Source: Nostoc punctiforme PCC 73102 (GTDB lineage Bacteria > Cyanobacteriota > Cyanobacteriia > Cyanobacteriales > Nostocaceae). From it: a DNA stretch of 32,000 bases. The notes below the pieces were generated by a model. That model saw only the letters and a list, made by a program, of their open reading frames with translations. It was not told where the DNA came from and made no database searches. The position numbers and the translations under genes were made by a program. Numbering within the stretch: the stretch's first letter is position 1; each line of letters begins with the position of its first letter. The stretch lies in the NCBI RefSeq assembly GCF_000020025.1, contig NC_010631.1, positions 120,001 to 152,000 of the forward strand, read 5' to 3'. Positions 1 to 32,000 of this stretch are shown piece by piece.

Positions 1-1707
1 GCATTGAAGTTTTATCAAGAATCTTTAACTATTCTCCAACAGATTGGTGACAAAGCAGGCGAAGGCAAAACTTTTCATAATATTGGAGAAGTTTATCAAA
101 GGCAAAGACAATATATAAAAGCCTTTAAAATTTATCAGGAATCTTTAAGTATTTTTAAACAAATCGGCGATAAAGCAGGTGAAGGCATAACTCTTAATAA
201 TATTGGTGGGGTTTATTATAACCAGGGAGAGTATGCCAAAGCTTTGGAATTCCATCAGGAAGCTTTAGCAATTGTCAAACAAGTTGGTGATAAAGCGGCA
301 GAAGGAACATATCTTAATAATATTGGTTCAGCTTACGAGAAATTAGGACAATATGATAATGCTGAAAAAACGCTATTTACCGCAATTGAGATTTGGGAAG
401 ATTTGCGAAAGAATGGATTAACTGATGCTCATAAAATTTCCATCTTTGAAAAACAAGCCGAAACCTACCGCTTTCTGCAAAAAGCATTAATTGCCCAGAA
501 TAAAATTAATTCTGCACTAGAAGTAAGCGATCGCGCCAAATCTAGAGCCTTTATTGAGTTACTAGCCTCAAAGCAATTAGAAAAACCAAACCCACTATTA
601 AATATCAAACCCCTCGCACTCCAGCAAATTAAAAACGTCGCCAAGGTTGAGAATGCAACCCTTGTGCAGTATTCAATTATTGGCAATGAAGCACTCTACA
701 TTTGGGTAATTAAACCTACAGGTGAAATAGCTTTTGAGCAAGTTGACTTGAAAAAAAGTCTAAATACTTCTCTAGAAAACCTTGTTATTAACAACCGTAA
801 AACTCTGGGTGTGAGAAGTCGGGGTATTAAAGTGGAACCTAAAAGTGGCGGTAATCAAAAACAGCAGTTACAAAAACTCTATGAAATACTAATCAAACCC
901 ATCGCCCAATATTTACCAAAAGATTCTAATGCTCGTGTTATCTTCGTTTCTCAAGAATCGTTGTTTCTTGTACCTTTTCCAGCATTGCAAGATGAGCAAG
1001 GCGAGTACTTAATCGATAAACATACTATCCTGACTGTACCTGCCATTCAAGTGTTAGATTTAACCACCAAGCAGAAGCATAACCTTAACAAGTCTGCAAA
1101 AGATGTGCTGGTTATTGGCAATCCTATCATGCCTAAAATTCCCATTACAAATGAACAGTTGTCATCCCTTCCTGGTGCAGAAACAGAAGCAATACAGATT
1201 GCAGATTTATTTAAAACCAAAGCAATTATAGGTAGCAAAGCTACCGAGACAGCCATTGTCCCGAAGATGAGCAAAGCTAGGATAATTCATTTTGCTACCC
1301 ACGGCTTACTTGATGATTTTAAAGGATTCGGTGTGCCTGGTGCGATCGCCTTTGCTCCTAGTAATCAAGACGACGGCTTCCTAACATCAGGCGAAATTCT
1401 CGACATGAAACTCAACGCCGAACTCATTGTCCTTAGTGCTTGCAACACTGGAGGCGGAAATATTACAGGCGATGGTGTTATTGGTTTATCGCGTTCTTTG
1501 ATCACTGCTGGAGTACCCAGCGTCATCGTATCCCTGTGGGATGTGAATGATAATTCCACCGCCTTTTTAATGAGCGAATTTTATGATCATTTCCAGCAAA
1601 ATCCCGATAAAGCTGTAGCGTTACGCAAAGCAATGCTCACTACCAAAAAGCGATATACAAATCCTCTTTACTGGGCTGCCTTTACCCTCATTGGTGAAGC
1701 AGATTAA
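1..1707 (+). CDS. TPR-repeat + CHAT-domain (caspase-fold) protease; 5' end cut by the window edge
   Basis: Frame 1 is open from base 1 (track ORF 4..1707). The N-terminal part has 40-aa TPR-like units (GDKAGEG.TLNNIG.VY.NQG.YAKAL.F.QEAL). The C-terminal CHAT hallmarks are IIHFATHG (His) and LSACNTG (Cys). It ends WAAFTLIGEAD like the other paralogues here. Confidence 0.9.
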   Translation, partial: ALKFYQESLTILQQIGDKAGEGKTFHNIGEVYQRQRQYIKAFKIYQESLSIFKQIGDKAGEGITLNNIGGVYYNQGEYAKALEFHQEALAIVKQVGDKAAEGTYLNNIGSAYEKLGQYDNAEKTLFTAIEIWEDLRKNGLTDAHKISIFEKQAETYRFLQKALIAQNKINSALEVSDRAKSRAFIELLASKQLEKPNPLLNIKPLALQQIKNVAKVENATLVQYSIIGNEALYIWVIKPTGEIAFEQVDLKKSLNTSLENLVINNRKTLGVRSRGIKVEPKSGGNQKQQLQKLYEILIKPIAQYLPKDSNARVIFVSQESLFLVPFPALQDEQGEYLIDKHTILTVPAIQVLDLTTKQKHNLNKSAKDVLVIGNPIMPKIPITNEQLSSLPGAETEAIQIADLFKTKAIIGSKATETAIVPKMSKARIIHFATHGLLDDFKGFGVPGAIAFAPSNQDDGFLTSGEILDMKLNAELIVLSACNTGGGNITGDGVIGLSRSLITAGVPSVIVSLWDVNDNSTAFLMSEFYDHFQQNPDKAVALRKAMLTTKKRYTNPLYWAAFTLIGEAD

Positions 1708-1755
1708 AGCACATAAATTATTAAGTATCAGCATACATAATAAGATAATGTCAAT

Positions 1756-3201
1756 TTGAAAAAAATTCAGACTTACTTTGTACAATCAATTTGTCTATGT
1801 ATTCTCGCCATTACCTACTTGCCTAATATCAATATTTTGGCAAATAACAAGGTTTTAGCGCAAACCACAAATGCCGATGAACCATCAATTCTAGAAACCC
1901 AAACTTCCACCTCTAACCGATTACAAAAATTACTCATTGAACAGAATAAACCTGAAGCAGCGTTAGAAATTTCCGAACGCAGCCGTAACCGTGCATTAGT
2001 AGATATATTGAGTGATCGCTCGTCTTCATCAGTTGTTAAACCTTTAAGTACTGAACAAATTAAACAAGTTGCTAAACAACAAAATGCTACACTTGTTCAA
2101 TATTCAATCATTAATGATGAATTCAACATTGAAGGCAAAAAGCAAACTAGAGAATCAGAATTGTATATTTGGGTGATTAAACCTACAGGCGAAATAGCAT
2201 TTCGTAGCGTTGACTTAAAACCACTATGGCAGAAAGAAAATACATCTTTAGCTGATTTAATTACTCACAGTCGTCGGACTCTTGGTGTCAGCAGTAATTA
2301 TCTAAAAGGCATTGTTATTCTTAAGCATCCTGAACAGAAAAATAACCCTAGTCAACAATTACAAAAACTACATCAACTATTAATTGCACCCATCGCCAAC
2401 ATATTACCAAATCAAGCAGATGCACACATTATCTTCATTCCCCAAGGTGAATTATTTCTTGTACCTTTCACAGCATTAAAAGATACTAAAGGCAAATACT
2501 TGATTGAGCAACATACCATTTCCACTGCACCCTCTATTCAAGCATTAAATTTACTTTATCAGCGACAACAGAAAATTCAAGGAGTAGCTAAAGATGTACT
2601 AATTGTGGGTAATCCTACTATGCCTAGCATTTCCCTAAAGCCTGGAGAGTCTCCACAAAAACTATCGCAACTACCAGGTGCAGAACAAGAAGCAAAAGAC
2701 ATTGCAAGTATATTTAACACCCAAGCACTCACAGGTGATGCAGCCACAGAAACCACAGTTGTTCAAAAAATGCCCCAAGCCAAAATTATTCACTTAGCAA
2801 CCCAAGGCGGATGTAATGATTCATTAGAAATAACTTGCGGACTTGCACTTGCACCTTCACAACAAGACGATGGCTGGCTAACATCTGAAGAAATTCTAAA
2901 GTTGAACCTCAAAGCTGATTTAGTTGTGTTGAGTTCAAATGATACAGCACTAGGAAAAATCACTGCCGATGGTGTGATTGGCCTATCTCGTTCTTTCTTC
3001 GCAGCCGCAGTTCCCAGCGTGATTGGTTCTTTATGGAGTGTACCTGATAAAGAGACTGCCTTTTTAATGATAGAGTTTTATCAAAAACTCAGTGAAAACC
3101 CAGATAAAGCTGCTGCCTTGCGTCATGCGATGCTAGCAACTATGAAAAAATACCCAAATCCCAGAGATTGGGCGGCTTTTACCCTGATTGGTGTGTTGTA
3201 G
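1756..3201 (+). CDS. CHAT-domain paralogue without TPR array; predicted catalytically inactive (pseudoprotease), with N-terminal leader
   Basis: 481-aa ORF with a TTG start that is needed to encode the hydrophobic leader MKKIQTYFVQSICLCILAITYL...KVLAQT. It aligns along its length with the CHAT halves of its neighbours. The His motif reads HLATQG (CAA at 2803..2805) and the Cys motif reads LSSNDT (AAT at 2938..2940). Confidence 0.85.
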   Translation: MKKIQTYFVQSICLCILAITYLPNINILANNKVLAQTTNADEPSILETQTSTSNRLQKLLIEQNKPEAALEISERSRNRALVDILSDRSSSSVVKPLSTEQIKQVAKQQNATLVQYSIINDEFNIEGKKQTRESELYIWVIKPTGEIAFRSVDLKPLWQKENTSLADLITHSRRTLGVSSNYLKGIVILKHPEQKNNPSQQLQKLHQLLIAPIANILPNQADAHIIFIPQGELFLVPFTALKDTKGKYLIEQHTISTAPSIQALNLLYQRQQKIQGVAKDVLIVGNPTMPSISLKPGESPQKLSQLPGAEQEAKDIASIFNTQALTGDAATETTVVQKMPQAKIIHLATQGGCNDSLEITCGLALAPSQQDDGWLTSEEILKLNLKADLVVLSSNDTALGKITADGVIGLSRSFFAAAVPSVIGSLWSVPDKETAFLMIEFYQKLSENPDKAAALRHAMLATMKKYPNPRDWAAFTLIGVL

Positions 3202-3223: not shown

Positions 3224-6200
3224 ATGCGCGATCGCCGCAGGTGGGGCATAGCCCATCGCACAAGCAGAATCATTTTAATCGCTTTGAGTGCTTTTCTTGT
3301 AACAATTGCACCTACATTCCCGCAGAATTTTTCCGGGGTTTTCTTTGCGCCACAGGTGTTAGCGCAAACATCAAATCAGCAGCAAACTGAGGCTGTCACT
3401 GGAAGTTTTATTGATTACTTTGCAGAAGAGAGACAATTTAAAGGGCATGAGGGTAGCGTTAACAGTGCGAGTTTTAGTCCTGACGGTAAGTTAATTGTGA
3501 CTGCTGGTGCTGATAATACTGCTCGTGTTTGGGATTTTGCGGGAAAGCAGGTAGCAGAATTAATTGGGCATCAAGGCAATGTTAAAAGTGCGAATTTTAG
3601 CCCGGATGGTAAGCTGATTGTCACTGCATCTTTTGATGACACTGCCCGTATTTGGGATATTTCAGGCAAACAGCTAGTTGAGCTAAAAGGACACCAAGGT
3701 AATGTTTACAGTGCGAATTTTAGCCCGGATGGAAAGGCGATCACTACAGCAGGTGCAGATAAAACCGTGCGGTTGTGGGATTTATCGGGCAAACAGCTAA
3801 GAGAATTTAAAGCCCATAATGCTAGTGTGTACAGTGCGAAGTTTAGTCCCGATGGCAAGCACATAGTGACAGCATCGGCGGATAAAACAGCGCGTGTATG
3901 GGATACGTCTGGTAAGTTGCTAGCAGAATTAAAGGGACACACGAACACAGTTTGGAGTGCAAATTTTAGTTGTGATGACAAGCGGATAGTTACAGCATCA
4001 GATGATAAAACTGCCCGCATCTGGGATTTATCTGGTAAGCAGTTAGCGGTTTTGCAAGGGCATCAAGATAGTGTTTATAGTGCGAATTTTAGTCCTGATA
4101 GTAAGCAGATTGTGACAGCATCGATTGATTTTGCTACTTTGCTGTGGGAGTCATCAGGGACGTTATTAGGGAAGTTACAACAGCATACTGGTGGGGTTAA
4201 TAGTGCGAACTTTAGCCCAGATGGAAAGTGGATTGTAACTGCCTCATCTGACAGTACCGCTCGTGTTTGGGATTTGTCTGGTAAGATGCTAACTGAACTG
4301 ACTAGCTTTCAACGTGAGGTTGGCAGTGCAAGGTTTAGTTCTGATGGACAACATATCGTTACAAAAAGTGGCAACATCGCCCAAGTGTGGGATTTGTCAA
4401 ACCGACAATTAGTTGAATTCAAAGGCCATCAAGCTGACATTAGAAGTGTTAGATTTAGCCAGAATGGAGAGCTTCTCGTCACTGCATCTGATGACAAAAC
4501 AGCTCGGATATGGGATTTGTCTGGTAAGCAACTAGCTGAACTAAAAGGACATGAGGATTTTATCTATGATGCTAGATTCAGCCCTAATGGAAAAAGTATT
4601 ATTACTGCATCTAATGACAAAACATCTCGGATATGGGATTTGTCTGGTAAGCAACTAGCTGAACTTAAGCATCAGGACTATGTTAGTAGTGCAACTTTTA
4701 GTCCTGATGGACAGAAAATTCTCATTGAATCTGGCAGTTTTACATTAAGTATTTGGGATATTTATGGTAAATTCCTAGCCACAATCAAAGGAGATAAATT
4801 TGATATCAACAGTGGTACTTTTAGTCCTGATGGACAGCGGATTCTGACCACTTCACTTGATGATACTGCCCGCGTTTTTGACATTTACGGAAAGTTATTA
4901 ACCGAATTCAGAGGGCATCAAGAGCAAGTAATAAATGCTAATTATAGCCCTAATGGACAACGAATTGTGACTGCATCTCTAGATGGTACTATTCGTGTAT
5001 GGGACACTTCTGGCAAGCAGCTAACTCTACTCAAAGGGCATAAAGGTAGCGTCAATAGTGCCAGTTTTAGTCCTGATGGAAAAGTTATTGTCAGTGCATA
5101 TGACGACAAAACTATCCTTGTTTGGGATACATCTGGCAAAATACTAGCTCAAATAGGAACACCCAAAAATGAATCTGAAGCTGGGTTTCAAGGAAAGAAA
5201 TTTAGTCCTAATGATTCCGAAATTATCAAGCTCGATAGTTTTAGTCCAGATGGCAAGCGTATAGTCATTGATAACCGCGTGTGGTCATTATCCAATAAGC
5301 TACTTGTTCAAATACCCAAACTAAAGTTTCCTGAAATACCTACAGATGAAAGTAGTCTCAGATTAATCTTTAGTGTGACTAAGGTCAACAGTACCAATTT
5401 TAGTCATGATGGACAGATGATTATCACTTCTAGTAAAGGTATTGTTTATTTATGGAATAGTTCTGGTAAGTTGTTAGCAGAACTCAAAAAACATTGGGGA
5501 CCAATTAGAAGTGCAAGTTTTAGCTCTAATGGACAGCAGATCGTCACTGCATCCTATGACGGTACTGCCCGTATATGGGATACTTCAGGCAAGGAGTTAG
5601 CACTGCTTAATCATAATTCTTTTGTTAACAGTGCTAGCTTTAGTCCTAATGGAAAGCAAATTGTTACTGCATCTGATGACAATACTGCTCGTGTTTGGAA
5701 TAGTTCGGGTAAGTTATTAACGGAACTTAAAGGTCATACACAACCAGTCTTAAGTACAAGTTTTAGCTTAGATGCCAAGCACATTGTTACTGCATCTGCT
5801 GACAAAACTGCCCGTGTTTGGGATTTATCTGGCAAACAGCTAGCAGAACTTCAACATTCTGCGATCGTCAGCAGTGCTAATTTTAGCTCAGATGGAAAAC
5901 AGATTATTACTACATCTCATGACGGTAGTGCTGGTGTATGGGATTTGAATAACAAAACAGCAGTACGTCTGAGTCATCAGCATATTGTCAATGAAGCTAG
6001 ATTTAGCCCGGATGAAAAGCTAGTTATAACGGCATCCAGAGACGGAACTGCTCGTGTATGGGATTTGTCTGGCAAACAAATAGTGTTGTTCAAACATCAA
6101 AGCAGTGTCAATAGTGCTAATTTTAGTCCTGATGGAAAGCAAATTATTACCGCATCTGATGATAAGACTGCTCGTGTTTGGAACTTATCTGGAAAACTGT

Positions 6201-9200
6201 TACTTGAATTAAAAAAAAGCGAGACTACTCTTAACAGTGCTAGTTTTAGCCCGGATGGCAAGCGGATTGTTACCACATCTGATGACGGTACTGCTCGCTT
6301 ATGGAACACTTCCGGCAAGTTGTTAATGGTTCTCAAAGGTCGTCCAGATTGGTTACTAGATGCCAGTTTTAGCCCGGACGGCAAGCAGATTGTTACCGCA
6401 TCTGATGATGGTACTGCTCGTTTATGGAATACTTCTGGTAAGATACTAGCCGAACTCAAAGGGCAAGAGAAGACTGTTAAAAGTGCTAGTTTTAGCCCAG
6501 ATGGGCAAAAAATAGTGACCGTATCCTTTGATGCTGCATCCTCTAGTGGTGCTGTACGTCTATGGGATTTATCTGGTAAACTGCTAGTTGAACTTCAAGG
6601 GCATCAAGGACAAGTCTTGTGTGCTAATTTTAGCGCCAATGGACAAAGAATAGTGACTGCCTCCGATGACAAGACTGCCCGTGTATGGGATTTATCCGGT
6701 AAGCAGATAGCAATCCTTAGTCATCAAGGTGGAGTCAACAGAGCAATTTTTAGTCCAGATGGACAAAGAATAGTGACTGCCTCCGATGACGGCACTGCTC
6801 ATTTATGGGATTTATCGGGCAAGTTACTTACCCAATTCAAAGAACATCAAGATGCTATCCAGAGTGTCAGTTTTAGCCCTAATGGACAACTGGTAGTAAC
6901 TGCATCTTGGGATGGCACTGCCCGTGTATGGAATTTGTCCGGCAAGCAGATAGTGCTTTTCAATCATCAGCGTGAAGTTATTGATACGAGTTTTAGTCCA
7001 AATGGACAATACATTGTTACTGCATCCATTGACAACACAGCTCGTTTATGGGATTTATCAGGTACGTTGCTTGTTGAATTTGTAGGATACCAAGGTGGTA
7101 TAGGCAGTGCTAATTTTAGTCCTGATGGACAATGGATTATTAACCTAGAATATGACAAACCTTCTCTTTGGAATTTGTCCTTGAGATTTCCATTAAGATT
7201 TCCTAAAGCCAGCATTTATGCATATGAAGATACTTTTCCAAACACATCTGTCGAAAAGTCTACAGCACTTCTTAAAGAATATTGGGTAAATATTGGCAGT
7301 GCAAAATTTAGCCCTGATGGACAACGCATTATCTCTGTTTTTAGTGACGGTAGCACTCGTGTATGGGATTTATCTGGAAGACTGCTAGCTTTTATTAAGG
7401 GGCATCAAGGTAGGGTTACAAGTTCTAATTTTAGCCCTGATGGACAAAGAATTCTCACCACATCTAATGATGGTACTGCCCGTATATGGGATTTGTCTGG
7501 TAAGCAACTTGCGAGTTTGGAGTTGCCAGCACTTCCTTCTTCACCAAAAGTGGAAGCAGACAGACTCCAAAATTTAGAATTTTATGCCCCTAATTGTGCC
7601 GCAGCATTTGAGCCTTGGCAAAAAGCCCTCAAAATCTACAGCGAAATTGCAGACCATGAAAATCAAGCTTATATGCTACGAGAACTAGGAAATGCTTACT
7701 ATTGCCTGGGCAACTTTACAAAAGCAATTGCCTCTTATTCCCAGTCATTAGAAAATGCTAGCAAATATAATTATCTGCAAATTGAGTTGAATAGTTTATC
7801 CAATTTAGGACGTGTTTACAATTCTTTAGGAGATTATGATATAGCGATTAAATATTATAATGAAGCATTAAAAATTTTAGATATGCATGACGCTCCTCAA
7901 AATAAAACAGATGTTTTACGTGGTAGAGGATATGCTTACTATCAAAATAATAAACTTGAGGAAGCAAGTAAGGATTATCTACAAGCGTTAGACATTGACG
8001 AAAAAAATAAAAATGTTGCTGGGATCGCTATAAATAAAGTAAATTTGGCTAATATTTATTTTTATTTAGGTGACTTTTTCCAAGCAATTCAATATTACAG
8101 AGAGGCATTAGAGTTCAGCCCTAGTGAGGCACTAGCAGGTTTGGGAAATATTTACTTAGCCTTTGGTGATACTGCAAAGGCGGTTGATTTACATCAGCAG
8201 AGTTTAGCAAAAGCACAACAAGACGAAAACTATGAAATTCAGGGTAATGCACTGAACAATTTAGCTTATACCTTTCAACTATCAGGAAACTTGCCCGCAG
8301 CAGAAAAAACTTTATTTAATGCCATTAGAGTTTGGGAATCGCTTCGCTCTCGATTAGACGATGCCAACAAAATATCTATCTTTGAAAAGCAAACTCGCAC
8401 CTACCGCCTGCTACAAGAAGTGTTGATTGCTCAAAATAAACTCACTGAAGCACTAGAAATATCTGAACGCGGTCGCGCGAGAGCTTTTATTGATTTACTC
8501 AATAAACGATTATCCCCTAATCAAACAGAGCAATCAAAACTTCCAACAGTGAATATTGAACAGATTAAACAAATTGCTAAAAACGAAAATGCAACCCTGG
8601 TTCAATATTCAATTATTACTGATGAATTCAAAGTTGATGGTAAACTGCAAACTCAAGATTCAGAACTTTATATTTGGGTCATCAAACCCACGGGAGAAGT
8701 ATCATTTAATCGCAGCGATCTGAAAAATTTGTGGCAAAAAGAAAAGACAACTCTGAAGCAATTAGTTGACAAAACACGTTTCTCTATGGGTGTAAAAGAC
8801 ATCAAGAGTCGCAGTCCTGGTGGTATCAAAGTTTCAGCAGCCGAAGGGGCAAAGCAGGGCGATCGCTTACAACGACTCCATGACTTTTTAATCAAACCCA
8901 TTGCAGATATCCTACCCAGTAACCCCAATGACCGAGTTATCTTTATCCCTCAAGGTGAGTTGTTTCTTGTTCCTTTCCCCGCGCTGCAATATGACCAAAA
9001 TAAATACCTAATTGAAAAACACACCATCCTCACTGCACCATCAATTCAAGTATTGGATTTCACATCAAAGCAACAACGACGTGTAGAGAAGTTAAATGCC
9101 AAGTCTTTGATTGTCGGTAATCCGACAATGCCGAAAGTGGAGTTGGAACCAGGAAAACCCCCTGAACAATTAAAAGATTTACCTTGGGCAGAAAAAGAGG

Positions 9201-9793: not shown

Positions 9794-9828
9794 ATAAAGG
9801 GGGATTTATCACGTCTTTGCAATCTGGA

Positions 9829-9859: not shown

Positions 9860-9883
9860 ATGTTTGTAAATTTCTGAACATTT

Positions 9884-25720: not shown

Positions 25721-25777
25721 ATACCTGTGAAGAGCAAGAAAACCTCTGCAATATTTAATATTTTAGGAGATACAACA

Positions 25778-26284
25778 ATGAAAGGTTTGAAACTAGTAGC
25801 AGCTATTTTAGTATTTGGAACATTGACTTTTACACCCAAAGCTGAAGCGAAAAGCTTGTTCAACACTCAACAAGTCATAGCACAAGTTCCTGACTCGCAA
25901 ACTGAAAATCCGAAGGATACCGAAACATACTTTAAACGGGGTTTTAAGCGGATAGAATCGAAAGATTATCGAGGAGCAATTGAAGATTTTAACCAAATCC
26001 TGAAGATTGAACCTAACAATGCTTATGCCTACGTTGGTAGAGGATTAGGTAATTTTTGTCTGGATGAATATCAAGCAGCAAAGACAGATTTTGACAAAGC
26101 TATAGAAATTACTCCCGATATTCCCTATGCCTATTATTTCCGAGGTTTGACAAACTTTGCTTTAAAAGACAAACCAGCAGCGATCGCTGATTTACAGAAA
26201 TCATTCACGCTGTTTAAACAAGAAGGGAATCAGGAATTCGCCCAAAAAGCCACCGACGCACTTCAGAAGATACAAGAGAGTTAA
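25778..26284 (+). CDS. Small secreted TPR-repeat protein
   Basis: The ATG at 25778 lies 7 nt after AGGAGA (25765..25770). The signal peptide is MKGLKLVAAILVFGTLTFTPKAEA, followed by QQVIAQV. Three TPR units of the type AY..RG......Y..A..DF..A are present. The track's GTG start at 25727 is less likely. Confidence 0.85.
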   Translation: MKGLKLVAAILVFGTLTFTPKAEAKSLFNTQQVIAQVPDSQTENPKDTETYFKRGFKRIESKDYRGAIEDFNQILKIEPNNAYAYVGRGLGNFCLDEYQAAKTDFDKAIEITPDIPYAYYFRGLTNFALKDKPAAIADLQKSFTLFKQEGNQEFAQKATDALQKIQES

Positions 26285-26358: not shown

Positions 26359-26377
26359 ATGGAAATATCTGCCCAAT

Positions 26378-26408
26378 TTTCGCATATCCTTTAAAAGCTG
26401 AGAAATAT
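26378..26408 (+). promoter_or_regulatory. Shared promoter-like motif, copy 6 (upstream of the decayed TPR gene)
   Basis: tttcgcatatcct-ttaaaagct-gagaaatat. Spacing is the same, but TTGCAT reads TCGCAT. It ends 34 nt before the ATG at 26443. Confidence 0.45.
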
Positions 26409-26442
26409 ACACCACTGAGTCAGTCTGCTGGAGTTTTTGCTA

Positions 26443-27464
26443 ATGGGCTACCGTCTGAAGTACCTCATCCTTGCTACTGTAGGGCTTTCCTTTGCCCCCT
26501 TGTCTCCTCTTTCTCCCGTCTCTTTGTCTCCCTTGGTGGTGCAGGCGCAAACGACACAACAGCCTAGTCCTGAAGAAACAAACAGGGAGAAGGAACAACC
26601 CTCAACAATATTGGCTTTGTTTACAATAATCAAGGACAGTATGCCAAAGCTTTGGTAGCTTATCAGCAAGCTTTAGCTATTCGCAAACAAATCAATCAAA
26701 AAGCATTGGTAGGAGAAAGCCTCAATAACATTGGCTCTGTTTACGAAAATTTGGGACAGTACGATCAAGCATTGAAGTTTTATCAGCAAGCTTTAACTAT
26801 TCTCCAACAAATTGGCAGCAAGGTAGGTGAAGGAAAAACTCTGAACAATATTGGCTTTGTTTACAATAATCAAGGACAGTATGCCAAAGCTTTAAATTAC
26901 TATGTACAAGCTTTAACTATTCTTCAAAAAATTGGTGACAAAGCAGGTGGAGGTAAAACTCTCGATAATATCGGTGTGGTTTATGACAACCAGAGAGATT
27001 ATGCCAAAGCATTCGGATTTCATCAGCAAGCTTTAGCCATTTTCAAACAAATTGGTGATACAGCAGGTGAAGGCAAAACTCTTAATAATATTGGTGGGGT
27101 TTATTATAATCAGAAAGAGTATGCCAAAGCTTTGGAATTTTATCAGGAAGCTTTAGTTATTGTCAAACAAGTCGGTGATAAAGCGTCGGAAGGAACATTT
27201 CTCAATAATATTGGTTCTGCTTACGATAAATTAGGACAATATGAAAATGCTGAAAAAACGCTATTTACTGCAATTGAGATTTGGGAGTCTTTGCGAAAGA
27301 ACGAATTAACTGATGCTCAAAAAATTTCACTCTTTGAAATACAAGCCGAAACCTACCGTTTTCTGCAAAGGAGTCTGATTGCCCAGAATAAAATTAATTC
27401 TGCCTTAGAAGTGAGCGATCGCCTCATTCCCCAAACCAAACATCGTAGGCGCAGCCTGTCGTAG
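26443..27464 (+). pseudogene. Frameshifted, 3'-truncated paralogue of the TPR-CHAT gene at 1..1707 (leader + TPR only, CHAT lost)
   Basis: The ATG at 26443 follows GGAG. The leader MGYRLKYLILATVGLSFA...VVQAQT is in frame 1. The TPR frame opens only after the TGA at 26571 (track ORF 26652..27464). Nucleotide homology to 1..534 stops at the HIP1 site 27415..27422, inside ...ALEVSDR, where the paralogue continues into CHAT. Confidence 0.65.
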
Positions 27465-27476: not shown

Positions 27477-28064
27477 CTAAGCACTAACAACCGTAGGAAA
27501 AATCCGGCTCAAGTCTAATAAGACATCTTCAAATCCAGGAATTGCCACTGACTGATGGGGCAAAGATATCTGCTTGCTGAGATAATTATATTCACCTTGA
27601 GCAGTTTGATAAGGTTGGCTGTAACGCTCAAGTTGGCGAAAATTTAAGTTGACAATCCAATAATTAGAAATTCCGGCTTCTGCGTAGACTTCTAACTTTG
27701 TTGTTTGGTCGTAATCGAGGGTTGAATCGGAAATTTCAATCACTAAAAAAATATCTTCAGGATAGGGATGATGGGGAAGATAGTCAGTCTCATTTCCTCG
27801 TGCGATCGCCACATCTGGTTCAGGTTCACTATCTGATGGTAGTATGATTGGCTCTTGACAACGCACAACAGCGCCATCGCCCAGCAATCGATCCAGTTGT
27901 CTACAAAGCCGAGTTGTGCAAAATGTATGAGGTGTGCCTTTGGCTACCATCTGAATGAGTTCTCCGCGAATCAATTCAATGCGATCATTCTCCTTTAGAA
28001 ATTCCAGTTCAATCAGTCGATGATATTCATCAATAGTAAATCGCTTTGGTGTGACAACGTTCAT
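27477..28064 (-). CDS. Uma2-family (DUF820) restriction-endonuclease-fold protein
   Basis: The 195-aa ORF MNVVTPKRFTIDEYHRLIE...ELIRGELI.M...EPEPDVAI...LVIEISDST...D...K...YA..GI..YWIV is typical of the family that is expanded in cyanobacteria. Confidence 0.88.
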   Translation of the reverse strand: MNVVTPKRFTIDEYHRLIELEFLKENDRIELIRGELIQMVAKGTPHTFCTTRLCRQLDRLLGDGAVVRCQEPIILPSDSEPEPDVAIARGNETDYLPHHPYPEDIFLVIEISDSTLDYDQTTKLEVYAEAGISNYWIVNLNFRQLERYSQPYQTAQGEYNYLSKQISLPHQSVAIPGFEDVLLDLSRIFPTVVSA

Positions 28065-28140: not shown

Positions 28141-28299
28141 ATCTGACTTTTCACGGTAAGTTCTCAACTAACCAAAATACGTAGTTTTTTCTACAGGATT
28201 ATTCGCAATAGTCTTAAACTAATGACAATAATCAACGGGAAAATAGAGGCTGGAAGAAAGCGAAAAATGACCTTTTCCACATACCGTGAAAAGTCAGAT
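28141..28299. repeat. MITE-like element bounded by an 18-bp perfect inverted repeat
   Basis: ATCTGACTTTTCACGGTA (28141..28158) and TACCGTGAAAAGTCAGAT (28282..28299) flank 123 bp without an ORF. It lies in a roughly 300-bp segment that is absent from the homologous intergenic region at 12280..12296. Confidence 0.55.
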
Positions 28300-28433: not shown

Positions 28434-28459
28434 TTGTTCACTCTTGCACAGCGGCTCGA

Positions 28460-28490
28460 ATTTGCATATCCTTCAGCAGGTGAGAGATAT
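28460..28490 (+). promoter_or_regulatory. Shared promoter-like motif, copy 3 (upstream of TPR-CHAT 28537)
   Basis: atttgcatatcct-tcagcaggt-gagagatat. It ends 46 nt before the ATG at 28537. Confidence 0.55.
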
Positions 28491-28536
28491 ATTATATCTC
28501 CTTAAACTCGCTGCATTACTGCTGACTCTAAAATCT

Positions 28537-31500
28537 ATGGGCGATCGCAAACTTAGTTTAACCGTATTGATCACTCTCATCTTGACTGTTTCACAACCCA
28601 TCGCCAATTTGCCTCCACTATTCCAAGCGCCGCAGGTATTGGCGCAAACGCCAGCAGAACGGAAAGTAGAAGCAGACCGATTGTCGCAGCAAGGTCTTGA
28701 GCAGTTTAAAATTAGCCAATTTGAAGCCGCGTTACAGTCTTGGCAACAAGCACTTATTATTTATCGAGAAATCAAAGACCGTAAAGGAGAGGGAAAAACT
28801 CTAGGCCGTCTGGGAGTTATTTACGACTACCGGGGAGACTATACCAAAGCCATTCAGTACCAGCAGCAGAGTTTGGCGATCGCCAAGGAAACTAAAGACC
28901 GTTTAGGGGAAGGAAAAGCTCTGGTCAATCTGGGAAATGTTTACCATTCCCTGGGAGACTACGCTAAAGCCATTGAGTATCACTCCTCAAGTTTTACGAT
29001 CGCTCGTGAAATCAATGACCGTTCAATTGAGGGTGCTGCTCTGGGCAATCTGGGACTTGCTTACGATGCAAAAGGAGACTACGCCAAAGCCATTGAGTAC
29101 CACTCTTTAAGTTTGGCGATCGCTCGTGAAATCAAAGACCGTAAAGGAGAGGGAGAATCTCTGGGCAATTTGGGAATTGCTTACGATGCCCTGGGAGATT
29201 ACGCTAAAGCCATTGAGTACCAGCAGCAGAGATTGGCGATCGCTCGTGAAATCAAAGACCGTAAAGGGGAGGGAGAATCTCTGGGAAATCTGGGAAGTGC
29301 TTACTATTCGCTGGGAGACTACGCCAAAGCGATTAAGTACCAGCAGCAGAGATTGGCGATCGCTCGTGAAATTAAAGACCGCCGAGCACAGAAACAATCT
29401 CTGGGCAATCTAGGAGTTGCTTACAATGCTCTGGGAGACTACGCCAAAGCGATTAAGTACCAGGAGCAGAGTTTGGCGATCGCTCGTGAAATCAAAGATC
29501 GTAATGGCGAGGGTAATGCTCTGGACAATCTGGGACTTGCTTACTATTCGCTGGGAGACTACGCCAAAGCCATTGAATACTACTCCTCAAGTTTGGCAAT
29601 TGCACGAGAAATCAAAGACCGTAATGGCGAGGGTACTGTTCTGGGGAATCTGGGACTTGCTTACTTTTTGTTGGGAGACGACCTGAAGGCGATTGAGTAC
29701 CAGGAGCAGAGTTTGGCAATTGCACGAGAAATCAAAGACCGTAATGGTGAGAGTCAATCTCTGGGCAATCTAGGACTTGCTTACGATGATCTGGGAGACT
29801 ACGCCAAAGCGATTGAGTACTACCAGCAAAGTTTAGCGATCGCTCGTGAAATCAAAAACCGTTTAGGCGAGGGACAATCTCTGGGCAATCTAGGAAATGT
29901 TTACTATTCGCTGGGAGACTACGCCAAAGCGATTGAGTACTACCAGCAAAGATTGGCGCTCGCCCGCCAAATCAAAAACCGTTTAGGCGAGGGGAATGGT
30001 CTGAGCAATCTAGGAAATGCTTACGGTTCGCTGGGAGACTACGCCAAAGCGATTGAGTACCAGCAGCAAAGTTTAGCGATCGCACGAGAAATCAAAGACC
30101 GTTTAGGTGAGGGGAATGTTCTGGGGAATCTAGGATTTACTTTAAACAAATCTGGCAATCTTGCAGAAGCAGAAAAAAACCTCCGGGCTGGGATAGAGGT
30201 CTGGGAATCTGTCAGGAGACAGTTGGGTAAAAATGATAGCTACAAAGTCTCAATTTTTGAACGACAATCTCGCACTTACCGCATACTACAAAGAGTCCTA
30301 ATTGCTCAGAATAAAACCAAAGAAGCGTTAGAAATTTCTGAACGGGGACGTTCTAGGGCATTTGTGGAGTTATTAACTTCACGGTTGTCTAGCGAAAGTG
30401 CAGGTCAAACTGTAGAACGTCCTGTTGATAAACCGACAATATCGCTGTTGCAACAAATCGCCAAACAACAAAATGCCACCCTCGTTGAATATTCAACTAT
30501 TGGTGATGAATTCAAGATTCAAGGTAAACAAGAACAAAAAGAATCAGAACTCTACATTTGGGTAATCAAACCCACAGGTGAAGTTACCTTCCGCTCTTCT
30601 GACCTCAAACCCCTGTGGCAAAAAGAAAATACAACTCTTGACAAGCTTGTTACTACCAGTCGTAACTTCATTGGTGCAACAAGTACACCTTTTCGCGGTG
30701 GTATTATCCCCAGGGAAAATCCTAATAAACCCAAAGCCAAACAAAAATTTCAGCAACTCCATAAACTGCTGATTGAACCTATCGCTGACTTGCTTCCAAA
30801 ACAAGAAACTGAAAAAGTTATCTTCATTCCCCAAAGCAGCCTATTCCTCGTTCCCTTCGCCGCATTACAAGACGCAGACGGCAAATACCTGATTGAAAAA
30901 CACACCATCCTCACATCTCCATCAATTCAGGTTTTAGATTTAACCCACAAACAGAAACAACGGCTTGGAACAAAACCCATAGAAGGAAAAGATACGCTGA
31001 TTGTAGGTAATCCCACAATGCCTTTTCTCGCCCCAAAAATCGGCGATACTCCGCAACAATTAAAACCTTTACTTGGCGCAGAACTTGAAGCAGTTGCAAT
31101 TAGCAAGTTACTCAAAACCGAACCTCTCATCGGCAAGAAAGCCACAGAAGAAACTATAGTCAAGCGTTTACCCGAAGCGCGATTTGTTCATTTAGCAACA
31201 CATGGTTTATTTGATGATATCCAAGGATTAAATAGTGGCATTGCTTTGACTCCATCGGGTAAAGATGATGGTTTATTAACAGCCTCGGAAATCCTCGATC
31301 TGAAGCTAAATGCCGAATTAGTCGTTTTAAGCGCTTGCGACACCGGACGCGGACGCATTTCTGGGGATGGGGTAATTGGTTTATCTCGTTCGTTAATTAG
31401 TGCTGGTGTACCCAGTGTCTTAGTATCGCTGTGGTCGATTCCAGATGCGCCCACAGCCCTATTAATGACGGAATTTTATCAAAATCTGCAAAAAGGCTCC

Positions 31501-31602
31501 GACAAAGCGCAAGCACTGCGACAGGCAATGCTGAAAACCATTCAGAAATATCCTCAACCCAAATATTGGGCAGCTTTTACTCTCATTGGCGAAGCTGAGT
31601 AA
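28537..31602 (+). CDS. TPR-repeat + CHAT protease with N-terminal leader (paralogue of 12368..15580)
   Basis: I place the start at the ATG at 28537 (MGDRKLSLTVLITLILTV...QVLAQT) by homology with the starts at 12368 and 31682, not at the track's TTG at 28444. The TPR array is extremely regular. The CHAT motifs are HLATHG and LSACDTG. Confidence 0.92.
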   Translation: MGDRKLSLTVLITLILTVSQPIANLPPLFQAPQVLAQTPAERKVEADRLSQQGLEQFKISQFEAALQSWQQALIIYREIKDRKGEGKTLGRLGVIYDYRGDYTKAIQYQQQSLAIAKETKDRLGEGKALVNLGNVYHSLGDYAKAIEYHSSSFTIAREINDRSIEGAALGNLGLAYDAKGDYAKAIEYHSLSLAIAREIKDRKGEGESLGNLGIAYDALGDYAKAIEYQQQRLAIAREIKDRKGEGESLGNLGSAYYSLGDYAKAIKYQQQRLAIAREIKDRRAQKQSLGNLGVAYNALGDYAKAIKYQEQSLAIAREIKDRNGEGNALDNLGLAYYSLGDYAKAIEYYSSSLAIAREIKDRNGEGTVLGNLGLAYFLLGDDLKAIEYQEQSLAIAREIKDRNGESQSLGNLGLAYDDLGDYAKAIEYYQQSLAIAREIKNRLGEGQSLGNLGNVYYSLGDYAKAIEYYQQRLALARQIKNRLGEGNGLSNLGNAYGSLGDYAKAIEYQQQSLAIAREIKDRLGEGNVLGNLGFTLNKSGNLAEAEKNLRAGIEVWESVRRQLGKNDSYKVSIFERQSRTYRILQRVLIAQNKTKEALEISERGRSRAFVELLTSRLSSESAGQTVERPVDKPTISLLQQIAKQQNATLVEYSTIGDEFKIQGKQEQKESELYIWVIKPTGEVTFRSSDLKPLWQKENTTLDKLVTTSRNFIGATSTPFRGGIIPRENPNKPKAKQKFQQLHKLLIEPIADLLPKQETEKVIFIPQSSLFLVPFAALQDADGKYLIEKHTILTSPSIQVLDLTHKQKQRLGTKPIEGKDTLIVGNPTMPFLAPKIGDTPQQLKPLLGAELEAVAISKLLKTEPLIGKKATEETIVKRLPEARFVHLATHGLFDDIQGLNSGIALTPSGKDDGLLTASEILDLKLNAELVVLSACDTGRGRISGDGVIGLSRSLISAGVPSVLVSLWSIPDAPTALLMTEFYQNLQKGSDKAQALRQAMLKTIQKYPQPKYWAAFTLIGEAE
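28765..30084 (+). repeat. Eleven tandem, exactly 120-bp (40-aa) near-identical TPR units, each carrying or nearly carrying a HIP1 site
   Basis: The unit is REIKDR.GEG..LGNLG.AY..LGDYAKAIEY.QQSLAIA. Unit 1 starts at 28765 and unit 12 (degenerate) starts at 30085, which equals 28765 + 11 x 120. Confidence 0.9.
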
Positions 31603-31681
31603 GTTTTTAAAGTTATCTACTCAACCCAAAAGCGCTTTATATCTTTTTAAACTCCCTACTTTACTCGTGGCTCTCAAATCT

Positions 31682-32000
31682 ATGCGCGATCGCAAACTTA
31701 GTTTAACCGCATTGATCACTCTCATCTTGACTGTTTCACTGCCGATTACAAATTTGCCTCCACTATTCCAAGCGTCGCAAGTATTAGCGCAAACACCAGC
31801 AGACCGCAAAGCTGAAGCTGACCGACTTTTAAATCAAGGTTTCGAGCAGCTTCAAACGAGTCAATTTACAGCAGCATTAGAGTCTGGGCAACAGGCACTA
31901 ATTATCTATCGAGAAATCAAAGACCGTCAAGGTGAGGGGCGTACTTTAATTTTTCAAGGTGCTGCTCATCTTAGTCTGGGAGACAAAGCTCGTGCGATCA
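31682..32000 (+). CDS. Third tandem TPR(-CHAT) paralogue, 3' end beyond the window (not in the ORF track)
   Basis: Starts ATGCGCGATCGCAAACTTAGTTTAACC. The translation is MRDRKLSLTALITLILTVSLPITNLPPLFQASQVLAQTPADRKAEADRLLNQG...YREIKDRQGEG. The frame is open to the last base. Confidence 0.85.
   Translation, partial: MRDRKLSLTALITLILTVSLPITNLPPLFQASQVLAQTPADRKAEADRLLNQGFEQLQTSQFTAALESGQQALIIYREIKDRQGEGRTLIFQGAAHLSLGDKARAI

What the first reader, a model, noticed from the sequence alone, without database searches (positions are those of the whole stretch)
1..32000. Exported protease island lacking the usual STAND NTPase
Seen: five genes have visible CHAT domains, and one further paralogue is cut by the window end. 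There is also one truncated copy, an orthocaspase and an S8 peptidase. These are interleaved with an IS relic, Uma2 copies and a MITE-like element. I found no Walker-A pattern GxxxxGK[ST] in any of the CHAT proteins. All of the proteases carry export-type leaders. Established: comparative genomics has described CHAT and caspase effectors joined to TPR and WD40 arrays as parts of NTP-dependent conflict or cell-death-like systems that are enriched in multicellular prokaryotes. Those are typically cytoplasmic and linked to NACHT or AP-ATPase modules. Inference: here the wiring differs. The location appears to be the envelope, the promoter motif is shared, and the only NTPase nearby is the tubulin-like GTPase. 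Possible roles include filament-level suicide or defence, kin discrimination, or matrix or septal-junction remodelling.
Basis: inference. Interest (0 to 1): 0.7.

Follow-up and report, generated by a model that had tools for sequence, protein, structure and literature searches.

The report
Exported CHAT–subtilase–caspase protease regulon
A plasmid of the filamentous cyanobacterium Nostoc punctiforme carries a co-regulated set of genes for proteases that appear to be sent out of the cytoplasm, including caspase relatives, a subtilisin and an inactive decoy-like copy; none has the ATP-driven switch usual for such enzymes, and the neighbouring tubulin-like gene is an unrelated module.

Summary
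The window, from Nostoc punctiforme PCC 73102 plasmid pNPUN01 (genes Npun_AF090 to AF107), encodes five CHAT proteins, an N-terminal piece of a sixth, one truncated copy, an S8 peptidase and a Tat-signal orthocaspase-DUF4384. It also has an IS4 relic, one Uma2 gene plus a relic, and a 159-bp element with inverted ends. No Walker A motif or NTPase domain was found.

New findings:
- A 12-nt core motif, TTTGCATAWCCT (extended: TTTTGCATAWCCTC-N9-AGAAATAYA), precedes six transcription units here. It also precedes orthologous protease genes in other Nostocales.
- The order pseudo-CHAT, TPR-CHAT, S8, small TPR protein, caspase recurs in Calothrix; partial versions occur in Mastigocoleus and Nostoc.
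- The short CHAT protein belongs to a family that has lost the catalytic His and/or Cys.
- TPR and WD40 arrays diverge far faster than the enzymes.
- The WD40-CHAT protein is in a published exoproteome with a SignalP Sec call.

The tubulin-like GTPase belongs to a separate, already described FtsZl1–vWA operon. It is absent beside the caspase in all 52 loci with enough downstream sequence.

Best reading: a nucleotide-independent, extracytoplasmic protease module with sensor-like repeat arrays. Its biological role is unknown. I rate it a new variant of a known kind, of moderate interest.

The parts
1..1707 (+). g1 (Npun_AF090): TPR-CHAT protease with its 5' end cut by the window start; His and Cys retained
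   Evidence: Frame 1 is open from base 1. CHAT E=6e-67 plus TPRs. The motifs HFATHG and LSACNT are present.
1756..3201 (+). g2 (Npun_AF091): signal peptide plus CHAT fold with the catalytic dyad lost (His to Gln, Cys to Asn); a pseudo-protease
   Evidence: CHAT E=2e-66. The motifs read ATQGG and SSNDT. Of 94 CHAT-only homologues, 86 lack His and/or Cys.
3224..9742 (+). g3 (Npun_AF092): signal peptide, about 26 Pfam WD40 repeat hits (32 FSPDG-type units by motif), TPRs and an active CHAT domain
   Evidence: Pfam results. Repeat families with periods of 120/123 nt. Listed in an exoproteome with SignalP Sec and PsortB extracellular.
9826..9865 (+). Shared promoter-like motif upstream of g4 (core at 9830-9841)
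   Evidence: Exact match to the core; PWM score 37.7 bits.
9884..12049 (+). g4 (Npun_AF093): exported S8 subtilisin-like peptidase with a weak N-terminal prodomain-like region
   Evidence: Peptidase_S8 E=7e-51. Fervidolysin_NPro-like scores 18.6 bits, below its cut-off. Leader reads MKR...VTAVA|QT.
12071..12154 (-). Uma2 relic lying between g4 and g5
   Evidence: BLASTP against the intact Uma2 gives 68% identity over 28 aa, E=9e-11. An intact Uma2 sits at the same position in L007 and L008.
12293..12332 (+). Shared promoter-like motif upstream of g5 (core at 12297-12308)
   Evidence: 30.1 bits.
12368..15580 (+). g5 (Npun_AF094): signal peptide, TPR array and an active CHAT domain
   Evidence: CHAT E=1e-75 plus TPRs. 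ATHG and LSACDT are present.
15618..15657 (+). Shared promoter-like motif upstream of the caspase gene (core at 15622-15633)
   Evidence: 46.3 bits. The motif is conserved about 72 nt upstream of the caspase orthologues in L007-L012 and L092.
15698..17989 (+). g6 (Npun_AF095): Tat-signal orthocaspase (Peptidase_C14, His-Cys dyad present) with a C-terminal DUF4384
   Evidence: Pfam results. TAT_signal_seq scores 17.0 bits against a cut-off of 16.7. R6, R7, F9, Q11, L38, A39, Q40, H127 and C191 are invariant in 14 orthologues.
18034..18052 (+). Terminator-like hairpin after the caspase gene
18342..23897 (+). g7-g9 (Npun_AF096-098): PBP_like_2 membrane protein, a membrane vWA protein, and Tubulin_2 with a zinc ribbon. 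This is an FtsZl1-vWA module and is not part of the protease cluster.
   Evidence: Pfam results. The trio is conserved elsewhere without proteases. It is absent next to the caspase in 0 of 52 loci. Literature.
24134..25662 (-). IS4-family relic with a split DDE transposase and 35-nt imperfect inverted ends
   Evidence: DDE_Tnp_1 E=2e-9; inverted repeat.
25687..25726 (+). Shared promoter-like motif upstream of g10 (core at 25691-25702)
   Evidence: 44.3 bits.
25727..26284 (+). g10: small exported TPR protein. The listed ORF starts at GTG 25727; the likely start is ATG 25778.
   Evidence: TPR hits. Leader reads MKGLKLVAAILVFGTLTFTPKAEA|K. Homologues lie in the clusters of L007, L023, L025, L027, L037, L041, L051, L053, L055, L058 and L077.
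26375..27464 (+). g11: decayed TPR-CHAT copy with a promoter motif (core at 26379-26390), a leader, a frame shift, TPRs, and no CHAT domain
   Evidence: 38.7 bits.
27477..28064 (-). Intact Uma2-family gene (putative restriction endonuclease fold)
   Evidence: Uma2 E=1.5e-31; PADLOC PDC-S03.
28141..28299 (.). 159-bp element with 21-nt terminal inverted repeats (MITE-like; single copy seen)
28457..28496 (+). Shared promoter-like motif upstream of g12 (core at 28461-28472)
   Evidence: 35.8 bits.
28537..31602 (+). g12 (Npun_AF106): signal peptide, 11 TPR units of exactly 40 aa, and an active CHAT domain
   Evidence: Pfam results. Repeat analysis shows 70% mean identity between units, with variation confined to about 11 positions.
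31682..32000 (+). g13 (Npun_AF107): leader and first TPRs of a further paralogue, cut by the window end
   Evidence: The region is 84% identical in DNA to the start of g5 (family D12).

Best explanation
The window holds two separate things.

(A) A protease gene cluster that is often plasmid-borne and is conserved in Nostocales. Its products appear to be exported. It encodes:
- TPR- or WD40-CHAT cysteine proteases with Sec-type leaders;
- a conserved, catalytically dead CHAT paralogue encoded directly upstream of an active one;
- an S8 subtilase;
- a small TPR protein;
- an orthocaspase-DUF4384 with a Tat-type leader.

The transcription units share one promoter-region motif, TTTTGCATAWCCTC-N9-AGAAATAYA, so they probably answer to one regulator or sigma factor (inferred). 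No NTPase is present, which fits a compartment without nucleotides (inferred). Control would then rest on export, on zymogen-type processing between the proteases, on binding by the repeat arrays, and on the pseudo-CHAT acting as a partner or brake for the active CHAT (inferred).

The repeat arrays change much faster than the enzymes. This resembles a recognition module and favours a role in sensing variable outside or periplasmic ligands, in conflict or self/non-self recognition, over a housekeeping role (inferred, weakest step).

(B) A PBP-vWA-tubulin-like (FtsZl1) operon that lies next to the cluster only in this strain.
For: Gene content and absence of NTPases.

Export:
- Charged start, hydrophobic stretch and A|Q cleavage-type site in every complete protease, and in orthologues.
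- The same VLA|Q type of site occurs in unrelated periplasmic binding proteins, so these look like ordinary signal peptides.
- The Tat model passes its cut-off, and the RRxF core of the twin-arginine motif is invariant in the orthologues.
- Npun_AF092 was detected in all 8 supernatant samples, with SignalP Sec and PsortB extracellular. Two other N. punctiforme CHAT proteins in the same table have no signal peptide.

Co-regulation:
- The motif occurs 6 times against 0.51 expected.
- There are 42 distinct sites, all upstream of CHAT, S8, caspase or small-TPR homologues across genera.

Conserved linkage:
- Calothrix PCC 7103 has pseudo-CHAT, TPR-CHAT, S8, small TPR and caspase in one tight same-strand row.
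- The relative with the 95%-identical caspase and Nostoc HK-01 plasmid2 keep WD40-CHAT, S8, TPR-CHAT and caspase.

Pseudo-protease: all 7 g2-like genes in the window and loci, and 86 of 94 database homologues, lack His and/or Cys, whereas the TPR-CHATs keep both.

Fast-evolving arrays: against the closest relatives, S8 is 94-95% and the caspase 95% identical, while the TPR array is 30-41% and the WD40 array 49%, with different lengths.

Separate trio. In wild-type hormogonium RNA-seq, AF096-098 rise 1.6-2.7 log2 at 1-6 h, while AF090-095 stay within about ±1 log2 over that interval and show no comparable early rise.
Against: - No trained signal-peptide predictor was run here. The exoproteome came from cultures with heavy lysis, so detection alone does not prove secretion.
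- In the sigJ and sigC mutants, AF090-095 and AF096-098 all rise together, as do many other pNPUN01 genes. Expression therefore does not separate them cleanly and gives no specific support for a regulon.
- One weaker motif match (21 bits) precedes the trio in Fischerella.
- Many caspase orthologues stand alone, with no CHAT gene within 10 kb, so the linkage is facultative.
- No transcription start site, regulator, substrate or phenotype is known.
- The pseudo-CHAT partner role and the protease cascade are analogy only.
Confidence: 0.55

Rival explanations
1. The whole 32 kb is one system in which the tubulin-like GTPase takes the place of the missing STAND NTPase and drives or gates the exported proteases across the membrane.
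For: Adjacency on the same strand in this window. The trio has membrane-spanning members, PBP and vWA proteins with TM segments. All these genes rise together in the sigJ and sigC mutants. A motif-like site precedes the trio in Fischerella.
Against: The trio is absent next to the caspase in 0 of 52 loci, in the relative whose caspase is 95% identical, and on the HK-01 plasmid. The trio in N. commune and Fischerella, and the vWA-Tubulin_2 pair in Phormidium, stand among unrelated genes. A terminator-like hairpin and a 350-nt gap without the motif separate it from the caspase gene. Its wild-type expression profile differs. FtsZl1-vWA operons are a described independent module.
Confidence: 0.06
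2. There is no system. The region is a plasmid zone rich in paralogues, where CHAT genes pile up by tandem duplication and mobile-element traffic, and the proteases act independently.
For: An IS relic, Uma2 copies, a MITE-like element, one decayed copy, and DNA identity of 82-87% between paralogue segments. Gene content varies between strains. Transcript counts are low.
Against: Non-homologous genes (S8, caspase, small TPR, pseudo-CHAT) keep their linkage and order across genera. The same promoter motif precedes non-homologous genes. The pseudo-CHAT is kept as a family next to active CHATs.
Confidence: 0.15
3. It is a set of ordinary secreted digestive or matrix-processing enzymes for nutrient scavenging, sheath turnover or adhesin maturation, with no sensing or conflict role.
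For: Predicted export and detection in the supernatant. S8 subtilases are typical exoenzymes. Induction occurs in filaments that stay vegetative after transfer, in the sigJ and sigC mutants.
Against: Very long TPR and WD40 arrays and a conserved dead paralogue are unusual for bulk digestive enzymes. The arrays diverge to 30-49% identity while the enzymes stay at 94-95%. The cluster is often plasmid-borne and patchy in distribution.
Confidence: 0.2
4. The N-terminal hydrophobic segments are membrane anchors that leave the protease domains in the cytoplasm, so this is a cytoplasmic NTPase-less variant.
For: No trained predictor was run here. The stretch between the hydrophobic core and the A|Q site is long, 10 to 18 residues.
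Against: The positive charges lie before the hydrophobic core. The Tat model is passed. The same leader type occurs on periplasmic binding proteins. A third-party SignalP Sec call and supernatant detection exist for g3.
Confidence: 0.04

Closest known systems
NTP-dependent conflict systems of multicellular prokaryotes: STAND/NLR-like, VMAP and EACC1-caspase systems (Kaur et al. 2020, eLife 9:e52696)
   Same: Caspase-superfamily peptidases combined with TPR or WD40 superstructure-forming repeats. Inactive peptidase copies. Several peptidases in one neighbourhood, read as cascades. Enrichment in cyanobacteria.
   Different: No STAND, MoxR, GTPase or EACC1 component is present. The NCBIfam model for the EACC1-associated caspase scores 43.7 bits against a cut-off of 140. 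The products carry Sec or Tat leaders. That paper's text has no occurrence of 'signal peptide' or 'secreted'.
TPR-CHAT protease Csx29 of type III-E CRISPR (Craspase)
   Same: The same domain order, a TPR array followed by a CHAT protease with a His-Cys dyad.
   Different: No CRISPR or gRAMP genes are nearby. These proteins have signal peptides. A sequence search against the PDB found only TPR proteins and no CHAT structure. The comparison with Csx29 rests on my own knowledge.
Cyanobacterial orthocaspases with DUF4384 and pseudo-orthocaspases
   Same: g6 has the caspase-plus-DUF4384 architecture already counted in surveys: 23 of 473 cyanobacterial orthocaspases. Dead paralogues are known for orthocaspases (PMC6426788).
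   Different: The orthocaspase survey read here (PMC8283722) has no occurrence of 'signal peptide', 'twin-arginine' or 'periplasm' in its text, and links DUF4384 caspases to CHAT or S8 genes nowhere in the passages read. The dead enzyme here is a CHAT protein, not an orthocaspase.
FtsZl1-vWA operons (Makarova and Koonin 2010, Biol Direct 5:33)
   Same: g9 matches Tubulin_2 and is preceded by a membrane vWA protein. This is the arrangement described for that family.
   Different: The cyanobacterial version adds a zinc-ribbon/TM/PBP_like_2 protein and a C-terminal zinc ribbon on the tubulin-like protein. It bears only on the neighbour, not on the protease cluster.
Bacterial gasdermin systems with neighbouring caspase-like, CHAT or subtilase proteases
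   Same: The same protease families, often fused to TPR or WD40 repeats (from my own knowledge).
   Different: No gasdermin-like ORF was found and PADLOC gave no gasdermin hit. Those proteases act in the cytoplasm.

Membership tests
CHAT peptidase family (Pfam PF12770) | CHAT domain profile match | tested here: met
   g1, g2, g3, g5 and g12 score 225-257 bits against a cut-off of 24.
CHAT peptidase family (active enzymes) | Catalytic His (xATHG) and Cys (LSACxT) dyad | tested here: met
   Present in g1, g5 and g12 in the alignment, and in g3 by reading the translation: FATHG and LSACDT.
CHAT peptidase family (active enzymes), applied to g2 | Catalytic His and Cys | tested here: not met
   g2 reads ATQGG and SSNDT. 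Among CHAT-only homologues, 86 of 94 lack one or both residues.
Orthocaspase / Peptidase C14 | C14 profile match plus the His-Cys dyad | tested here: met
   Peptidase_C14 scores 95 bits. H127 and C191 are invariant in 14 orthologues. The nearest PDB sequences are metacaspases.
Subtilase S8 | S8 profile match plus the Asp-His-Ser triad | tested here: met
   Peptidase_S8 scores 174 bits. The motifs VIDS, HGTW and GTSFASP are visible in the translation; the triad was read by eye, not from an alignment.
Tat-exported protein | Twin-arginine signal at the N-terminus | tested here: met
   TIGR01409 scores 17.0 bits against a cut-off of 16.7. The RRxF core of the twin-arginine motif is invariant. Actual export was not tested.
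Sec-exported proteins | Cleavable signal peptide | tested here: inconclusive
   Only heuristic features were tested here. A third-party SignalP 'Sec' call and supernatant detection exist for g3 only.
STAND/NLR-type or other NTP-dependent conflict system | A P-loop, STAND, MoxR or GTPase component in or next to the protease proteins | tested here: not met
   No Walker A motif. No NTPase profile in Pfam, NCBIfam or PADLOC. The only GTPase belongs to a non-syntenic operon.
EACC1-caspase system | Caspase of the EACC1-associated type together with an EACC1 gene | tested here: not met
   NF047832 scores 43.7 bits against a cut-off of 140. The gene directly upstream of g6 is the TPR-CHAT g5 and matches no EACC1 model, though the caspase-type profile (NF047832) was the only EACC1-related model consulted.
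Bacterial gasdermin system | A gasdermin gene adjacent to the protease | tested here: not met
   No PADLOC hit other than generic TPR, subtilase and caspase models.
FtsZl1-vWA operon (g7-g9 only) | A Tubulin_2/FtsZl1 protein with a neighbouring vWA protein | tested here: met
   Tubulin_2 scores 385 bits. g8 has a DxSxS motif and its orthologues carry VWA_2. The family is described.

The most novel reading that the evidence does not exclude
Heterocyst-forming cyanobacteria may possess a nucleotide-independent surveillance and proteolysis pathway in the periplasm that is continuous along the filament, or outside the cell. Fast-evolving TPR and WD40 arrays on exported CHAT proteases would recognise foreign or non-kin molecules. 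A conserved dead CHAT paralogue would hold them in check. Activation would pass through the S8 subtilase and the Tat-exported orthocaspase to cut envelope or junction proteins. The whole set would be switched on through one dedicated promoter motif. This would be an extracellular counterpart of the cytoplasmic NLR/caspase logic.
Probability: 0.15. Interest if true: 0.85.

Novelty: new variant of a known kind. Interest (0 to 1): 0.5.

Why it matters
Caspase-type proteases joined to TPR or WD40 arrays are usually read as cytoplasmic, NTPase-gated death or defence effectors. Here the same parts carry export signals, lack any NTPase, keep a conserved inactive partner, and share a promoter motif across genera. 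That combination would require a different control logic, based on export, processing and binding.

The system sits in Nostoc punctiforme, a genetically tractable model organism. The motif, the export prediction, the pseudo-CHAT partner idea and any phenotype can all be tested directly. If the cluster acts on the shared periplasm of filaments, it bears on how multicellular bacteria police or remodel their common envelope.

It also corrects a public annotation: Npun_AF094 is named a Fis-family regulator but is a leader-TPR-CHAT protein.

Tried and rejected
- **Special sorting tag.** I tested whether the recurring VLAQT leader ending is a dedicated tag. Rejected: the same ending occurs on unrelated periplasmic binding proteins, for example ModA-like proteins ending SPVLAQS, and it fits the -3/-1 rule for signal peptidase I.
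- **SigJ J-box.** I tested whether the promoter motif is the SigJ 'J-box'. Rejected: the J-box needs an invariant GGG and has a weak -35 region, whereas this motif has AGA(A/G)AT and a strong upstream block.
- **Caspase structure.** AlphaFold2 on the 14-sequence alignment gave a mean pLDDT of 54.5. That is too poor for a fold search, so it was not used.
- **PDB search for a CHAT structure.** The sequence search returned only TPR proteins.
- **Plasmid collection.** It does not hold pNPUN01. The best match is Nostoc HK-01 plasmid2, 92% identical over window 9000-18007.
- **Literature on exported CHAT proteins.** Searches found nothing specific, and the locus tags returned no paper that mentions genes of this cluster in its main text.
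- **Other exoproteome data.** The EXCRETE exoproteome supplements held none of the accessions. The exoproteome table that lists Npun_AF092 was cut when stored, so the other cluster proteins could not be checked.
- **RNA-seq as evidence for a specific regulon.** Weak: much of pNPUN01 shows the same rise in the sigJ and sigC mutants.

Full report
**Origin of the window.** Five proteins encoded here are exact matches to Nostoc punctiforme PCC 73102 (ATCC 29133) proteins ACC84971 to ACC84978, on a 354,564-bp record that one entry labels as a plasmid. From my own knowledge this is pNPUN01. Product names in a published RNA-seq table give the locus tags Npun_AF090 (g1) to AF098 (g9), AF106 (g12) and AF107 (g13).

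**Gene map.** All genes are on the + strand unless marked.

| Gene | Coordinates | Content |
|---|---|---|
| g1 | 1-1707 | TPR-CHAT, cut at the window start |
| g2 | 1756-3201 | leader + CHAT only |
| g3 | 3224-9742 | leader + about 26 WD40 + TPR + CHAT |
| g4 | 9884-12049 | S8 peptidase |
| Uma2 relic | about 12071-12154 (-) | |
| g5 | 12368-15580 | leader + TPR + CHAT |
| g6 | 15698-17989 | Peptidase_C14 + DUF4384 |
| g7 | 18342-19550 | zinc ribbon-like N-terminus, TM, PBP_like_2 |
| g8 | 19579-20475 | membrane vWA |
| g9 | 20571-23897 | Tubulin_2 + zinc ribbon |
| IS4 relic | 24134-25662 (-) | |
| g10 | 25727-26284 | small TPR protein with a leader |
| g11 | 26437-27464 | decayed TPR-CHAT |
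| Uma2 | 27477-28064 (-) | |
| MITE-like element | 28141-28299 | 159 bp, inverted ends |
| g12 | 28537-31602 | leader + 11 TPR units + CHAT |
| g13 | 31682 onward | cut at the window end |

**The observation.**
- The strict Walker A pattern is absent from all proteins.
- Pfam, NCBIfam and PADLOC find no NTPase in the CHAT, S8 or caspase proteins. PADLOC returns only generic TPR, subtilase and caspase models.
- The MITE label is unproven, because only one copy was seen.
- The N-terminus of g1 lies outside the window.

**Leaders.**
- Each complete protease begins with basic residues, a hydrophobic core and a V/I/A-x-A|Q site that sits exactly at the border of the first folded domain. Orthologues in other genera have the same layout.
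- The caspase N-terminus reaches the curated cut-off of the Tat signal model. R6, R7, F9, Q11 and L38-A39-Q40 are invariant in 14 orthologues that are 57-74% identical.
- I tested whether 'VLAQT' is a special tag and rejected the idea. Unrelated periplasmic binding proteins in the fetched loci end their signal peptides the same way.
- Independent support exists for g3. A published N. punctiforme exoproteome table lists Npun_AF092 in all eight supernatant samples, with PsortB 'extracellular', SignalP 'Sec' and secreted 'Yes'. Two other CHAT proteins of the same organism in that table have no signal peptide. The authors note heavy lysis in those cultures, so detection alone is weak evidence.

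**Shared promoter motif.**
- TTTGCATAWCCT occurs six times at up to one mismatch, against 0.51 expected; no shuffle reached six. Each site is 36-76 nt upstream of a start codon (g4, g5, g6, g10, g12) or upstream of the g11 remnant.
- g2, g3 and g13 follow the preceding gene by 22-80 nt without the motif. They are probably co-transcribed with it.
- In 1.35 Mb of related loci, the exact or one-mismatch core lies mainly upstream of homologues of the caspase, S8, TPR-CHAT, pseudo-CHAT and small TPR genes.
- The 42 distinct sites give the consensus TTTTGCATAWCCTC-N9-AGAAATAYA.
- With a TAYAAT-like -10 element, the conserved upstream block covers the -35 region but does not resemble TTGACA. An alternative sigma factor or a class II activator is therefore likely (inference).
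- It is not the SigJ J-box.
- The PWM finds no site upstream of g7 in this window. It finds one weaker site (21 bits) before the trio in Fischerella.

**Synteny.** A scan of one genome per species returned 80 loci with caspase-DUF4384 orthologues at 47-71% identity. tblastn with the window proteins gave these counts.

| Group | Loci examined | Finding |
|---|---|---|
| Nostocales | 37 with at least 3 kb upstream | 16 have a CHAT gene ending within 1.5 kb upstream, same strand |
| Nostocales | 30 with at least 9 kb upstream | 23 have a CHAT gene, 8 an S8 gene, 11 a g10-like gene |
| Other cyanobacteria | 26 with at least 3 kb upstream | 2 have an adjacent CHAT gene |
| Other cyanobacteria | 21 with at least 9 kb upstream | 6 have a CHAT gene, 1 an S8 gene, 0 a g10-like gene |

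- Calothrix PCC 7103 shows the cleanest form: pseudo-CHAT, TPR-CHAT, S8, small TPR and caspase in one tight same-strand row.
- The relative whose caspase is 95% identical, and Nostoc HK-01 plasmid2, both keep WD40-CHAT, S8, TPR-CHAT and caspase.
- Several caspase orthologues stand alone, so the linkage is frequent but not obligatory.
- Copies lie on plasmids in N. punctiforme, Nostoc HK-01 and Calothrix brevissima.

**The tubulin-like trio is a neighbour, not a part.**
- None of the 52 loci with at least 6 kb downstream of the caspase holds g7, g8 or g9. Neither does the closest relative or the HK-01 plasmid.
- The tubulin-like protein is 63-96% conserved across filamentous cyanobacteria.
- In Nostoc commune and Fischerella PCC 9605 it sits in the same PBP-vWA-Tubulin_2 trio among unrelated genes. 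In Phormidium ETS-05 the vWA-Tubulin_2 pair persists.
- This is the FtsZl1-vWA operon described by Makarova and Koonin in 2010.
- In the window, a terminator-like hairpin follows the caspase gene.
- In wild-type hormogonium induction, AF096-098 rise 1.6-2.7 log2 at 1-6 h, while AF090-095 stay within about ±1 log2 at 1-6 h and show no comparable early induction.

**A conserved pseudo-protease.**
- g2 has Gln for the catalytic His and Asn for the Cys.
- Every g2-like CHAT-only gene in the fetched loci lacks His, Cys or both, with different substitutions. All alignable TPR-CHATs keep both residues.
- Among database homologues of 520 aa or less, 86 of 94 lack one or both residues, while 32 of 32 alignable longer TPR-CHATs keep them. 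The short proteins retain leaders and 54-89% identity.
- Where both ends are visible, the g2-like gene sits directly upstream of an active TPR-CHAT or WD40-CHAT gene.
- A role as partner or inhibitor is inferred by analogy with pseudo-caspases and was not tested.

**Fast-evolving repeat arrays.** Comparison with the two closest relatives:

| Part | Identity |
|---|---|
| S8 | 94-95% |
| Caspase | 95% |
| CHAT part of the syntenic TPR-CHAT | 78-80% |
| Leader of the syntenic TPR-CHAT | 84-87% |
| TPR array | 30-41% |
| WD40 array of g3 | 49% |
| C-terminal 730 aa of g3 | 75% |

- Protein lengths differ for the repeat proteins: 1070, 997 and 1106 aa for the TPR-CHAT, and 2172, 2085 and 2054 aa for the WD40-CHAT.
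- g12 has 11 units of exactly 40 aa. Mean identity between units is 70%, and variation is confined to about 11 positions.
- This pattern resembles recognition arrays. It could also come from recombination among paralogues.

**Expression.** In published RNA-seq data, AF090-095, AF102 and AF106-108 are low and flat in the wild type and the sigF mutant. They rise 2-5 log2 over 18 h in the sigJ and sigC mutants. Many other pNPUN01 genes do the same, so this is not specific evidence for a regulon.

**Mechanism.**
- Shown: gene content, absence of NTPases, export-type leaders, the shared motif, conserved linkage, the dead paralogue, the divergent arrays and the independence of the trio.
- Inferred: the products act outside the cytoplasm without nucleotide input. 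Their activity is set by a common transcriptional switch, by processing between proteases, by ligand binding to the arrays and by the pseudo-CHAT.
- The biological role (conflict or recognition, versus envelope or matrix processing) is open. I lean towards recognition because of the array divergence, the frequent plasmid location and the patchy distribution.

**Comparison with known systems.** The parts match the repertoire of conflict systems in multicellular prokaryotes. The defining NTPase, EACC1 or gasdermin components were tested and are absent. The TPR-CHAT order recalls Csx29, but no CRISPR genes are present. DUF4384 caspases are already catalogued. None of the papers I could read describes the Tat or Sec leaders, the linkage to CHAT and S8 genes, the pseudo-CHAT family or the motif.

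**Verdict.** This is a new variant of a known kind, not a new category. Interest is moderate, and higher if the periplasmic surveillance reading proves right.

Noticed in passing
window 12049-12368; L007 2697-3284; L008 (between its S8 and TPR-CHAT genes); L092 5097-6156: The gap between the S8 gene and the next TPR-CHAT gene is repeatedly occupied by selfish genes. L007 and L008 have an intact Uma2, this window has a Uma2 relic, and the relative whose caspase is 95% identical has an IS630-type transposase.
   Followed up: partly
window 12368-15580: Npun_AF094 (ACC84974) carries the public name 'Fis family transcriptional regulator', although it is a leader-TPR-CHAT protein with no DNA-binding domain hit.
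   Followed up: yes
window 16266-16286 (caspase residues about 190-196): The residue after the catalytic Cys is Phe (DSCFSGG) in this strain, where 13 aligned orthologues have His (DSCHSGG). The effect on activity is unknown.
   Followed up: no
window 3224-3235, 12368-12379, 31682-31693: The first four codons of g3, g5 and g13 are ATG CGC GAT CGC. The cyanobacterial HIP1 palindrome GCGATCGC therefore encodes the basic start (MRDR) of the leader.
   Followed up: no
L094 111-3217 (Nostoc HK-01 plasmid2); Npun_AF086-087, upstream of the window: A CHAT-like/CHASE2 membrane sensor gene followed by a DUF928 gene lies a few kb upstream of the cluster on the HK-01 plasmid. N. punctiforme also has a 'Chase2 sensor' (AF086) just before the window. 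It is a possible sensor for the cluster.
   Followed up: partly
L028 8620-9585 (-); L039 8662-9627 (-); also L032: A 321-aa trypsin-like protease with a leader lies divergently next to the caspase gene in Calothrix parasitica and in a related genome assembled from a metagenome; an ORF with a near-identical start is present in L032, where its position was not examined. This adds a fourth protease class to some versions of the cluster.
   Followed up: partly
L028 4711-5520: A 221-aa response-regulator-like ORF (the receiver domain just passes its cut-off) sits 144 nt behind a full copy of the promoter motif, between the TPR-CHAT and S8 genes.
   Followed up: partly
L089 7591-7630 (Fischerella PCC 9605): A motif-like site (21 bits; exact TTTGCATAACCT core) lies 123 nt upstream of the PBP-vWA-tubulin trio in Fischerella. 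No such site is found in N. punctiforme or N. commune.
   Followed up: partly
window 18342-23897: The cyanobacterial FtsZl1 module has a fixed three-gene form: a zinc ribbon-like/TM/PBP_like_2 protein, a multi-TM vWA protein, and Tubulin_2 with a C-terminal zinc ribbon. It is transiently induced at 1-6 h of hormogonium development in published RNA-seq data.
   Followed up: partly
window 28765-30144: The TPR array of g12 consists of 11 units of exactly 120 nt (40 aa). Identity between units is 70% at the protein level, and variation is concentrated at about 11 positions.
   Followed up: partly
window 28064-28460 compared with 12049-12300: The upstream regions of g5 and g12 are homologous. The g12 copy carries an insertion of about 300 nt that begins with the 159-bp inverted-repeat element.
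   Followed up: partly
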